From contig NC_135662.1 of assembly GCF_964188315.1 (NCBI RefSeq), positions 78,492,001 to 78,556,000 on the forward strand: a stretch of DNA of 64,000 nt, in the 5' to 3' direction. Position 1 is the stretch's first letter; every line of letters begins with the position of its first letter. Below, piece after piece: positions 17,503 through 20,500 of this stretch. This DNA comes from Podarcis muralis (taxonomy: Eukaryota). A program made the position numbers.

Positions 17503-20500
17503 GATAGATGATATAGATATAATTATCCAGTAGCACCTTAGAGACCAGCTAAGTTTGTTCTTGGTATCTGAAGAAGTGTGCATGCACACGAAAGCTTATA
17601 CCAAGAACAAACTTAGTTGGTCTCTAAGGTACTACTGGACAATTTCTTTTAGTTTTTTTATATATTCCTTTTTCTTTTAAATCAAAAAGTTCTTTTTTAA
17701 AATTAATGTTACATAGATTAGTTCATTCTCTGCATTGATCGTTGTTTCCTGTAGAGACTAAGGTGTATGTATGTATGTATGTATGTATACACACACGCAC
17801 ACTTGCCTGCAGACAAGTAGAGCATCTACTTCCATATTTATGTTTGATGTTTTTGACACTTTCTTCTACGCTACCCGCATGGTCCTAATTCTGTATTGTC
17901 TTTGGCTGTATTTGCATTACAAGGACACGACTGCAATTCGCTATCCTCCCCTACCCCAAAGAAGATCAGTAGTATGCACGGGAGCATCCTAAGAGCTTTC
18001 CTCCTAGATCTTTGCAAGCTTTACAGTGGGCAGCAATACTCGCTCAGTTAAAACCAAACACAAATTGTAGAATAACTTTCAGTAGTCTTAGAAAGAGCCT
18101 ATAATCCTAGTCACTGGAACCAAGTGACATTGAAATCAATAGGGTTTTCTTCCCCCCTCTCTCTTTTTGGATTGTAGTGCTAGAATGCTTCCAGAAGCTA
18201 TTTATAGTTTCAGACTGTCTCAAAACGAAGAGGTTCGTGGAAGGAGATTGCTCCACACGAGTTAATTTTTAAATACAGATGTGTTGTTTTGGTTTGGTTC
18301 TAAACGCCACATACAGGAGAGTTTTCCTATGTAATGCCACTTACGAATTCAAGGAAGCCCTGCGGCATTTTGCCTGTAGCCTGACACATCCAAATGCTAC
18401 TGGATCAGGTGGCAGTTTCTGCCTGTTACAGCTGGCGATGTGGCAGACTTGATTACTTCATTTTCCTTTTTAATCCATTTCAATATATTGCCTTGTCCCC
18501 ATTGTGATCGAAACAATGTGCAGATACTAAGCCTCTCAGATTTCACATCCATCTGTTCAGGAAAAGGGATCTTGTCTGCCGCCATCTTTGTCTGTCTGTT
18601 CCATAATCAGTACACATTTAACACGAAGCAATGTGAAGCTCTTGCTTCAAACAGCAGCTCCCAGTAAGGGTAGATTTTCCAGCTGCAGCTTTTTCCATTT
18701 TCTTCTCCAGCCCAGAGTAAAGCAGCATGAGGTTGACCTTAAGTGCACTGCTTCATGAAGTTATAAATTTCAGATACCTGAAATCACTGATTTGCTTGCA
18801 GTTTGATGTTTGTGATCATTGTGGTTGGAAGAGGTGCAAGAGAGATTTGTAGTACATTTCTCTTGGGATCAGGCTCATGGAGGCTTAGGTCCAATGAACT
18901 GTGCAATGAGTTTTCTTATTGGGGCAGGTAGACATGTTTCCTCCCACAGTATTCCCTCAGGCTGCTTGGCAAAGTGCTTTAGAAAAGTAGGGTACATTCA
19001 AAAGATGTTTGTAATATGGCACTGGAGTCTGCTGGCCAAAAAGGCAAAAAACCAAACCCAAGTGCTAGGCAGCTACAGGCTCTTGGATGAACCTAAATAG
19101 GCTGTGTGGATGCAAATCAAAGACAATAGTGAATTAAATAGAAACAGAGAACAATTTGGACCTGAAGGATTTTGGAATATGAACTCCCCCAATTTTGGAA
19201 TTTCATCCTCCCCCAAGCTTGAGATGAGGGAGCAAACAAGAGGCTGGAAGAGCCTTTGAGCAGTAGCAAACTTTATTACAAATGAGGCCCAAAAGCAGAG
19301 AATGAAATTCCAGTGGCCCATCTGGTCCAGCATTCTGTTCTCACAGTGACCAACCAGGTGCCTATGGGAAAACCACAAGCAGGTTTCAAGAACAAGAATA
19401 TTCTCCCTTCCTGTGATTCCCAGCTCCAGGCAAGGATTCCTGAAAATGGTACACAGGCCAAATGATGAGGTTTGGCAGGTCAAGTTTGGCCCATGGCCTG
19501 GAGTTCCCCCAGCCTTGCTTTAGAGCATCATTTCCTGCAAAGTGTATGCTTCTCGGTCTCATGACTTGAATTGGGAGGCATAGAATACTACAAGTCGTAC
19601 ATACTTCTGCAGGACATTGTGCTCTTCGTTATGCTGAGGAACATCTAGGCTACACAAGCTTGAGACTTCTTTTGCCTCTGGCAAGGTTCCACCCGACATA
19701 CTGGTTTCATATTGAGACCACTGTTACAGTGAAGATACTGGGGAGAGAGGGCGGGGCTTAGTTTGTGAGGCATTTGCAATCCCAGCGACTACCGTATATT
19801 GGGAGCTCGGAGTTAGGAAAAAACAAAACCCTAACAATTTCCGATGGTGAGAGGGCTGGGAAAAGCTCAGTTTGTCAAACTGAATTTTGAATCGTGCTCA
19901 AGAGAATTCACCACTCCTTGTAAACAAGTCTGTTCTTTCCCCCATGGGATTCTCTAGATTATCCTGGTAGTTTCCCATTAGTTTCTGTTAAAATGTTTAA
20001 ATGAATCTTTGTTGTTAGCACTTAAAACTTTAATAAACTATATTGGGCACCACCAAAATGAAATAAGTAATTATGTTAGTCCTTTTCTTTTTTTTAGTGG
20101 GAGAATTAAATTCATGATTGAGGCTGTAAGTGTAATCCTCTAAGCATGTATAAGATTGCGCTGTGAATCTCTTCATTTGAAATGAATGGGATGTATGTAG
20201 AATACTTAAGTTTGGATGAATTGTGCCAATACTTAATTATTTGTGGTGTGGGTGGGCTTGAATAACTATTTTAATTCATTTTATGTAGCTGTTGGATCTC
20301 ATTTTCCTCACAAGCACACAACTGCAAAAAGTTTGGGAATAATATATGCAAAATATGTATACCATCATCATCATCATCATCATTTATTTTTTCCATTTAT
20401 ATACCGCCCTTTATCAAAATACCCCAGGGCAGTGTACAACATTATAAACATGAAAAACTGGTACCTTAGTAATGGGAGACAAGCTGACTGGAGTCTGACA

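What the first reader, a model, noticed from the sequence alone, without database searches (positions are those of the whole stretch)
17521..17644. Inversion breakpoint matches the ribozyme cleavage site and extends stem I to ~47 bp
Seen: 17521-17567 is the reverse complement of 17598-17644 (44/47 match). The right arm starts at the first base after the predicted scissile bond, and the left arm abuts the CUGAAGA core. The result is a long hairpin whose 30-nt loop is the catalytic core. Inference: the inverted arm was copied from the self-cleaved RNA end, which would be a genomic footprint of ribozyme cleavage during PLE retrotransposition. The long stem may also stabilise folding or yield a Dicer/ADAR substrate.
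Basis: partly seen in the sequence, partly recalled or inferred. Interest (0 to 1): 0.68.

Follow-up and report, generated by a model that had tools for sequence, protein, structure and literature searches.

The report
Retrotransposon ribozyme inside an inverted-copy hairpin
A small self-cutting RNA motif from a Penelope-like jumping gene sits in the loop of a long hairpin formed by two head-to-head partial copies of that element; the join lies at the ribozyme's cutting site, which hints that the cut happens during insertion but does not prove it.

Summary
17521-17567 is the reverse complement of 17598-17644 in 44 of 47 positions. As RNA it folds at -78.3 kcal/mol, z = -15.8. The 30-nt loop is an intact minimal hammerhead core of the Penelope-like-element (PLE) type (features as in PMC4209133).

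The hairpin is not a separate feature. It is the centre of a 251-bp insertion (17414-17664) bracketed by a 12-nt direct repeat, probably a target-site duplication (3 of 1707 control placements and 4 of 2000 shuffles reach 12 nt). The insertion holds two head-to-head 5'-truncated copies, a known PLE layout (PMC8557442).

The likeliest origin is reverse transcription primed on both nicked strands, followed by annealing of the two cDNA ends through the ribozyme's own short helix I.

The join does sit at the scissile bond, but two things weaken that as evidence:
- Any repeat that extends helix I starts there by definition.
- About 5 bp of presumed native helix I blur the breakpoint.

Run-off on a self-cleaved RNA is the simplest cause of the left copy's end, but this is one locus. 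No eukaryotic collection was available, so the family consensus and the genome-wide spread of breakpoints stay untested.

The parts
17402..17413 (.). Left copy of the 12-nt direct repeat TTCCTTTTTCTT (putative target-site duplication)
   Evidence: Longest shared word between the two 60-nt flanks. It is reached by 3 of 1707 same-geometry placements in the window and by 4 of 2000 flank shuffles.
17414..17453 (-). 40-nt outer end of the minus-sense copy. Its sense strand is AC-rich. It is presumed to be the element's 3' terminus or 'tail', where reverse transcription began.
   Evidence: Sequence (62.5% A+C on the sense strand). It can form a 6-bp stem-loop, but this is not better than shuffles (z = -0.06). 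By analogy, PAc starts reverse transcription in an AC-rich stem-loop, and PLE tails of 30-40 bp often occur at one end only. Membership in the same element is inferred, not shown.
17455..17519 (.). (ATAG)n microsatellite, 16.8 units, inside the minus-sense copy
   Evidence: Tandem Repeats Finder.
17521..17567 (-). Left arm: antisense copy of the 47 nt that follow the ribozyme's scissile bond. It is the 5' end of the minus-sense copy.
   Evidence: 44 of 47 complementary to the right arm; alignment of the two copies in sense orientation.
17563..17567 (+). GGTAT: candidate native 5' strand of helix I. It is the microhomology that makes the breakpoint ambiguous.
   Evidence: Pairs with 17598-17602. 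Published helix I length is 4-5 bp. The native sequence of this family was not available.
17568..17597 (+). Minimal hammerhead core and helix II: CUGAAGA, a bulged A, a 14-nt palindromic helix II, GAAA, the AGCU palindrome and U17. The scissile bond follows 17597.
   Evidence: 1 hit in the window, 0 of 300 shuffles. Features match PMC4209133.
17598..17644 (+). Right arm: the sense sequence from N1.1 to +47, contiguous with the core
17645..17664 (+). 20-nt T-rich stretch between the right arm and the right repeat copy. It is either the element's spacer or filler at the second priming site.
   Evidence: Only weak likeness to the left copy beyond +47. Origin unresolved.
17665..17676 (.). Right copy of the 12-nt direct repeat (putative target-site duplication)

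Best explanation
The hairpin is the middle of a single 251-bp Penelope-like-element insertion (17414-17664) flanked by a 12-bp target-site duplication in T-rich DNA. The insertion has two head-to-head, 5'-truncated copies of the region just downstream of the element's hammerhead:
- A minus-sense copy (17414-17567) runs from the AC-rich terminus to the first base after the scissile bond.
- A plus-sense copy (about 17563-17664) carries a complete minimal hammerhead.

Proposed mechanism. The element's endonuclease nicked both target strands 12 bp apart, and both 3'-OH ends primed reverse transcription. The two cDNA 3' ends then annealed through the ribozyme's own 5-bp helix I and were filled in. 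This converted a 5-bp helix I into a 47-bp stem.

Shown: the anatomy, the flanking repeat and the intact core.

Inferred: priming on both strands, joining through helix I, and the reason why the left cDNA stopped within 5 nt of the scissile bond. Run-off on an RNA already cut by the ribozyme is the simplest cause; I give it about even odds. The right copy's template was uncut when it was copied.

The long stem is a by-product, not an adaptation.
For: - Arms and fold.
- Core with all the features published for metazoan PLE min-HHRs (an extra nucleotide between 9 and 10.1, G10.1-C11.1, a long helix II, no helix III loop, palindromic 15.2-16.2).
- The 12-nt flanking repeat is rare under both nulls: 3 of 1707 and 4 of 2000. 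PLEs make target-site duplications of variable length.
- An inverted 5'-truncated copy next to a PLE copy, with a 30-40-bp tail at only one end, is the published norm. Here the 40 nt at 17414-17453 lie at one end only.
- Purified PAc cleaves and extends both target strands, prefers AT-rich targets and starts in an AC-rich stem-loop 85-92 nt past its HHR cut (111-118 minus 26). Here the cut-to-end distance is 154 nt, or 89 nt without the 65-nt microsatellite.
- On the minus strand the sense arm runs to the terminus next to a direct repeat copy and is longer than the antisense arm. This rules out simple snap-back of one cDNA.
- The junction is at the 5-bp helix I and not at the 14-nt helix II palindrome. 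This argues that the left cDNA never reached helix II.
- PAc's HHR cleaves in the presence of its protein.
Against: - This is a single locus. There is no second copy in the window and no eukaryotic genome to consult, so the native helix I and the native 3' terminus of this family are assumed, not seen.
- PAc is a different family, so its biochemistry is only an analogy.
- In PAc, HHR mutants did not alter insertion, unprocessed RNA was the main substrate, and no RNA-seq reads began or ended at the cut.
- The right copy does not end in the AC-rich terminus. Its priming site is therefore non-canonical or unknown, and 17645-17664 is unexplained.
- The AC-rich stem-loop folds no better than shuffles.
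- The arms differ at 3 of 47 positions. Either the event is old or the two templates differed.
- No PLE RT or GIY-YIG ORF is present: 70 of the 76 stop-to-stop ORFs of 90 aa or more were scanned, and the only Pfam hit was a LINE-type endonuclease.
Confidence: 0.6

Rival explanations
1. The architecture is the same (two cDNAs, one insertion), but the ribozyme never cut. The left cDNA paused or switched template at the folded or dimerised hammerhead junction, and helix I microhomology alone set the breakpoint.
For: - 5 bp of complementarity lie exactly at the junction.
- HHR mutants did not change PAc insertion, and no RNA ends were seen at the cut site.
- PLE min-HHRs self-cleave poorly in vitro.
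Against: - A cDNA that read on through an uncut site would carry the 14-nt helix II palindrome, a far better annealing site, yet the junction is not there.
- A flush stop at +1 needs an extra assumption (a pause or flap trimming).
- PAc's HHR does cut when the protein is bound.
Confidence: 0.25
2. The hairpin was inherited. A master locus already had the inverted structure, its transcript carried the long stem, and this locus is an ordinary single-strand TPRT copy of that RNA.
For: - A single TPRT from the left repeat copy would explain the canonical left terminus, the flanking repeat and the arbitrary right end, without any non-canonical second priming.
- The 3 arm differences could predate the insertion.
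Against: [quoted passage not shown]
- There is no other copy in the window.
- This could not be tested in a genome.
Confidence: 0.2
3. A rearrangement at the DNA level after insertion (fold-back or quasi-palindrome template switching at replication) extended a short hairpin in place.
For: Short inverted repeats such as helix I can seed events of this kind (general knowledge, no call).
Against: - The left side continues in antisense orientation, beyond the microsatellite, to an AC-rich terminus that sits directly on the flanking repeat. This fits a whole inverted copy, not a local correction.
- The whole structure lies inside one repeat pair.
Confidence: 0.05
4. The hairpin is a functional RNA gene (a microRNA precursor, or a selected Dicer/ADAR substrate).
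For: - It is a near-perfect 47-bp stem.
- Rfam microRNA hairpin models match below threshold: mir-559 at 51.9 bits against a cut-off of 95, and mir-3688 at 50 against 84.
Against: - The matches are equally good on both strands and lie far below the gathering scores. There is no match at gathering.
- There is no conservation or expression evidence.
- The structure is fully explained as an insertion by-product.
Confidence: 0.03

Closest known systems
Minimal hammerhead ribozymes of metazoan Penelope-like elements (Cervera & de la Pena 2014, PMC4209133)
   Same: The CUGANGA/GAAA core, one unpaired nucleotide before helix II, G10.1-C11.1, a long helix II, no helix III loop, a palindromic AGCU that would allow a dimer, and occurrence as a solo fragment.
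   Different: Helix I is 47 bp here instead of 4-5 bp. No PLE ORF is nearby. Cleavage was not tested.
PLE insertions with an adjacent inverted 5'-truncated copy and a tail at one end (Craig et al. 2021, PMC8557442, Fig. 2 legend and text)
   Same: Head-to-head copies, a flanking duplication of variable length, a 40-nt extension at one end only, and an AT-rich target.
   Different: Both copies are tiny, and both are truncated at the hammerhead. The published description does not place the junction relative to the ribozyme.
PAc (Poseidon of Anolis carolinensis) in vitro system (PMC11167929)
   Same: The hammerhead lies about 90 nt upstream of an AC-rich reverse-transcription start. Both target strands are cut and extended. 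The ribozyme is protein-assisted.
   Different: The sequence family is different. In PAc, cleavage was dispensable for insertion.
Twin priming of LINE-1 (recalled, no call)
   Same: The second nicked strand also primes reverse transcription, which gives an inversion inside one target-site duplication.
   Different: Twin priming joins adjacent parts of one RNA. Here the two arms copy the same 47 nt twice.
HDV-like ribozyme of R2 elements (reviewed in PMC6765202; passages seen, which name R2 as an HDV-like-ribozyme element; the rest recalled)
   Same: A self-cleaving ribozyme defines an RNA end that is then recorded in genomic copies.
   Different: The ribozyme class and the element class are different. 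The R2 role is established, whereas here it is a hypothesis from one junction.

Membership tests
PLE minimal hammerhead (min-HHR) | Conserved core C3-U-G-A-N-G-A9 and G12-A-A14, with A15.1/U16.1 and H17 not G | tested here: met
   17568-74, 17590-97. Descriptor script: 1 hit in the window, 0 in 300 shuffles.
PLE minimal hammerhead (min-HHR) | [quoted passage not shown] | tested here: met
   A17575; G17576-C17589; 14-nt palindrome; 5 bp plus a 4-nt loop in the fold; 6 consecutive pairs in the script.
PLE minimal hammerhead (min-HHR) | No closed helix III; palindromic 15.2-16.2 that permits a dimer | tested here: met
   A-G-C-U at 17593-96. Dimer formation itself was not tested.
PLE minimal hammerhead (min-HHR) | [quoted passage not shown] | tested here: not met
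   47 bp with 44 complementary positions. Only the inner 5 bp may be native.
PLE minimal hammerhead (min-HHR) | Self-cleavage at the predicted bond | not testable with these tools
   Needs an in vitro transcript or sequencing of RNA ends.
Rfam hammerhead families | Covariance-model score at or above gathering | tested here: not met
   No match at gathering in the window. No hammerhead model among the 14 matches at E <= 10 in 17350-17750. This is plausibly because there is no helix III (my reasoning; I did not inspect the Rfam models).
Penelope-like element insertion (inverted-copy form) | Head-to-head copies inside one target-site duplication | tested here: met
Penelope-like element insertion (inverted-copy form) | Sequence homology to an element that encodes a PLE reverse transcriptase and a GIY-YIG endonuclease | not testable with these tools
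   There is no such ORF in the window: 70 of 76 ORFs were scanned, the 6 across the N gap were left out, and the only Pfam hit was a LINE-type endonuclease. No eukaryotic DNA collection was open. The protein search with the 49-aa translation found nothing.
Penelope-like element insertion (inverted-copy form) | A 30-40-bp tail at one end, corresponding to the interval between two reverse-transcription start sites | tested here: inconclusive
   A 40-nt AC-rich end lies on the left only. Whether it is this family's tail is unknown.
microRNA precursor (mir-559, mir-3688) | Score at gathering, with strand specificity | tested here: not met
   51.9 against 95 and 50 against 84 bits, with both strands alike.
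MITE / DNA transposon | Inverted repeats at the termini of the inserted unit | tested here: not met
   The inverted repeat is internal (17521-17644). By my reading, the unit's ends at 17414 and 17664 are not complementary, and the repeat finder lists no such pair.

The most novel reading that the evidence does not exclude
Hammerhead self-cleavage happens inside the PLE ribonucleoprotein at the target. It sets the 5' end of one of the two cDNAs made on the two nicked strands, and helix I complementarity then joins the two cDNAs. On this reading the ribozyme is the device that resolves the double-primed intermediate and creates the inverted repeats typical of PLEs. Genome-wide, inversion junctions and the 5' ends of short copies would then pile up on the scissile bond.
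Probability: 0.25. Interest if true: 0.75.

Novelty: new member of a known kind. Interest (0 to 1): 0.42.

Why it matters
The function of the hammerhead in endonuclease-bearing PLEs is still called unclear (PMC8557442). The only reconstituted system found cleavage dispensable for insertion in vitro, and suggested that cleavage may act at a later step (PMC11167929). A junction that records a cDNA stop at the scissile bond would be the first genomic trace of that later step. It turns the question into a simple counting exercise on any PLE-rich genome. As it stands this is one ordinary PLE fragment whose geometry is suggestive. It has no evident role for the host.

Tried and rejected
- **Rfam.** There was nothing at gathering. 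The permissive scan gave only generic microRNA hairpin matches on both strands.
- **Other copies in the window.** None were found with three patterns at up to 3 mismatches or with blastn at word size 7. Four further CTGANGA...GAAA strings failed my descriptor. Two of the four lie in a palindromic MITE-like repeat.
- **Related loci elsewhere.** Only the bacterial/archaeal genome collection was open. Pattern 1 gave 0 hits. Pattern 2 gave 2 hits in bacterial MAG contigs that I judge to be chance matches by eye: the stretch between the motifs shows no helix II pairing.
- **Protein route to the family.** A 21-aa query was too short. The 49-aa translation of the left copy found nothing among longer proteins. 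This is weak evidence, because only about 13 informative residues were available.
- **Single-cDNA snap-back.** Rejected on anatomy (see the report).
- **MITE and chance.** Both rejected.
- **AC-rich stem-loop.** It is not better than shuffles.
- **Literature for a stated link between inversion junctions and the HHR cut.** I ran (16 papers; 16; 28; 57), with 15 papers listed in each. I judged these from titles and abstract starts only, and none addresses the link. The core sequence as a search term found 0 papers.
- **Papers not held.** Lunse et al. 2017 and Pyatkov et al. 2004.
- **Supplements.** These were closed. PAc's Fig. S2 (coverage of genomic copies and RNA-seq ends) and the reptile alignments of Cervera 2014 may bear directly on the claim.

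Full report
**1. Observation**

- The two 47-nt arms are reverse complements at 44 of 47 positions. The exceptions are three transitions, at 17525/17640, 17534/17631 and 17548/17617.
- The repeat finder reports the palindrome. blastn against the whole window finds only this self-match, at E = 5.7e-34.
- As RNA, 17515-17650 folds into one hairpin at -78.3 kcal/mol, against -26.6 +/- 3.3 for 200 shuffles (z = -15.8).
- Complementarity ends at both outer boundaries.

This is not chance.

**2. The loop is a ribozyme core of a known type**

The bases 17568-17597 read as follows:

| Element | Coordinates |
|---|---|
| CUGAAGA | 17568-74 |
| one extra A | 17575 |
| helix II, a 14-nt perfect palindrome | 17576-89 |
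| GAA (G12-A14) | 17590-92 |
| A15.1, G15.2, C16.2, U16.1 | 17593-96 |
| U17 | 17597 |

Cervera and de la Pena (PMC4209133; I read parts 1-2 of 4 of the text) describe the minimal hammerheads of metazoan Penelope-like elements (PLEs). [quoted passage not shown] Every feature except helix I length is present here.

A descriptor-style script of my own finds exactly one such motif on the two strands of the window and none in 300 block-shuffled windows. The Rfam hammerhead models do not match. I think this is because there is no helix III, but I did not inspect the models.

That paper reports no min-HHR family in mammals, and Craig et al. state that PLEs are absent from mammals and birds. I therefore do not take this contig for human.

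**3. Surroundings**

The hairpin is not free-standing.
- To its left lie an (ATAG)n array at 17455-17519 and then 40 nt (17414-17453) whose minus strand is AC-rich.
- To its right lie 20 T-rich nucleotides (17645-17664).
- The whole unit is bracketed by the 12-mer TTCCTTTTTCTT at 17402-17413 and 17665-17676. A shared word of 12 or more between flanks of this geometry occurs in 3 of 1707 placements across the window and in 4 of 2000 shuffles of these flanks.

I read the 12-mer as a target-site duplication, and 17414-17664 (251 bp) as one insertion into T-rich DNA. PLEs make duplications of variable length (Craig et al. 2021, PMC8557442, passages).

No PLE reverse transcriptase or GIY-YIG endonuclease is encoded in the window. 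I scanned 70 of the 76 stop-to-stop ORFs of 90 aa or more, leaving out the 6 that cross the N run. The only Pfam hit was a LINE-type endonuclease at 40100-41242. The window holds no second copy of the element.

**4. What the anatomy says**

On the plus strand the order is:
1. repeat copy
2. antisense AC-rich end
3. microsatellite
4. antisense +47 to +1 (counting from the scissile bond)
5. sense core
6. sense +1 to +47
7. T-rich 20 nt
8. repeat copy

This is two head-to-head, 5'-truncated copies. Craig et al. describe this arrangement as frequent in PLEs, including a 30-40-bp tail that is often present at one end only.

The in vitro study of PAc (PMC11167929; Main text read in full) supplies a mechanism. 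The purified protein cleaves and extends both target strands, prefers AT-rich DNA, and starts reverse transcription inside the RNA at an AC-rich stem-loop 111-118 nt into the ORF. The hammerhead cut lies 26 nt into the ORF, so the cut-to-start distance is 85-92 nt.

Here the distance from the cut to the left end is 154 nt, or 89 nt if the 65-nt microsatellite is discounted. This agreement is only suggestive. PAc is a different sequence family, as its template RNA printed in the Methods shows. By my reading, its helix I is about 3 bp with no long complementarity.

**5. Mechanism proposed**

The endonuclease nicks both strands 12 bp apart.
- The plus-strand 3'-OH primes a cDNA from the AC-rich terminus towards the RNA 5' end.
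- The minus-strand 3'-OH primes a second cDNA from about +67, through +1, across the scissile bond and the core, into the 5' strand of helix I.

The two cDNAs are both antisense. They can therefore pair only where the element is self-complementary. The 3' end of the first (...GGTAT) is complementary to the copy of the helix I 5' strand in the second. Annealing and fill-in then give exactly the observed sequence.

Simple snap-back of one cDNA is excluded. On the minus strand the sense arm is longer than the antisense arm, and it runs to the terminus next to a direct, not inverted, repeat copy.

**6. Is this a footprint of cleavage?**

Against a strong reading:
- Helix I begins at N1.1 and N2.1 by definition, so any inverted repeat built on it starts after the scissile bond.
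- The 5-bp microhomology blurs the breakpoint to 17563-17568.
- The right copy's template was uncut.
- For PAc, core mutants did not change insertion, and no RNA-seq reads began or ended at the cut.

In favour:
- The first cDNA must have ended within about 5 nt of +1 for the annealing to work.
- Had it read on, it would have carried the 14-nt GC-rich helix II palindrome, a far better pairing site. That would have given a junction centred on 17582/17583, which is not seen.
- PAc's ribozyme does cleave once the protein is bound, and its authors suggest a role late in the cycle.

I therefore rate run-off on a self-cleaved RNA as the simplest cause, at about even odds. A stall or template switch without cleavage comes next. 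Inheritance of the hairpin from a master copy is a third option that cannot be excluded without the genome.

From recall only (no call, and not used as evidence), I believe that copies of this family in lizard genomes usually have a short helix I.

**7. Function**

Nothing indicates that the long stem is selected.
- A 47-bp helix I would hold the cleavage products together, and there is no loop 1 for the tertiary contacts of fast hammerheads. That is inference from general hammerhead knowledge.
- The microRNA matches are generic hairpin matches on both strands, far below threshold.
- Dicer or ADAR processing needs expression data that I do not have.

**8. What stayed unchecked**

- The family consensus and the genome-wide distribution of junctions. 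No eukaryotic collection was available. The two scans of bacterial and archaeal genomes gave 0 hits and 2 hits that I judged to be chance matches.
- Supplements of the PAc and Cervera papers.
- The papers of Lunse et al. and Pyatkov et al., which were not held.
- Any statement in print that links inversion junctions to the cut site. In four keyword searches (16, 16, 28 and 57 papers, 15 listed each, judged from titles and abstract starts) and one sequence search (0 papers) I saw none.

**9. Verdict**

The object is an ordinary PLE-derived double fragment of a known kind.

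Noticed in passing
window 17433-17440 and 17616-17623: The 8-mer GTTGGTCT occurs on the plus strand in both the antisense AC-rich end and the sense right arm. In the element's RNA, positions +19 to +26 after the cut would therefore be complementary to the loop of the AC-rich stem-loop where reverse transcription is presumed to start. This is a possible long-range pairing between the ribozyme-proximal region and the start site. The left arm carries a mismatch at this site (17548).
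   Followed up: no
window 17582-17680: The ATG in the loop of helix II opens a 32-codon frame that runs through the right arm. In PAc the element's ORF starts at the start of helix II. Here the frame ends in the T-rich stretch, and the protein search with the left copy's translation found nothing.
   Followed up: partly
window about 48480-48625 (+) and about 14985-15115 (-): Two copies of a palindromic MITE-like repeat of about 140 bp. Each contains a CTGAAGA...GAAA string that is not a hammerhead by my descriptor.
   Followed up: partly
window 40100-41242 (-): A 380-aa open frame with an Exo_endo_phos endonuclease domain (E = 2e-11) and Exo_endo_phos_2. This is a LINE-type retrotransposon fragment unrelated to the PLE.
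   Followed up: no
window 9229-9428: A run of 200 N. It was left untouched, and the six ORFs that cross it were not scanned.
   Followed up: no
window 17764-17800: A (TGTA)6 array followed by a short CA-rich stretch, about 100 bp to the right of the insertion. The neighbourhood is rich in microsatellites and T-rich runs.
   Followed up: no
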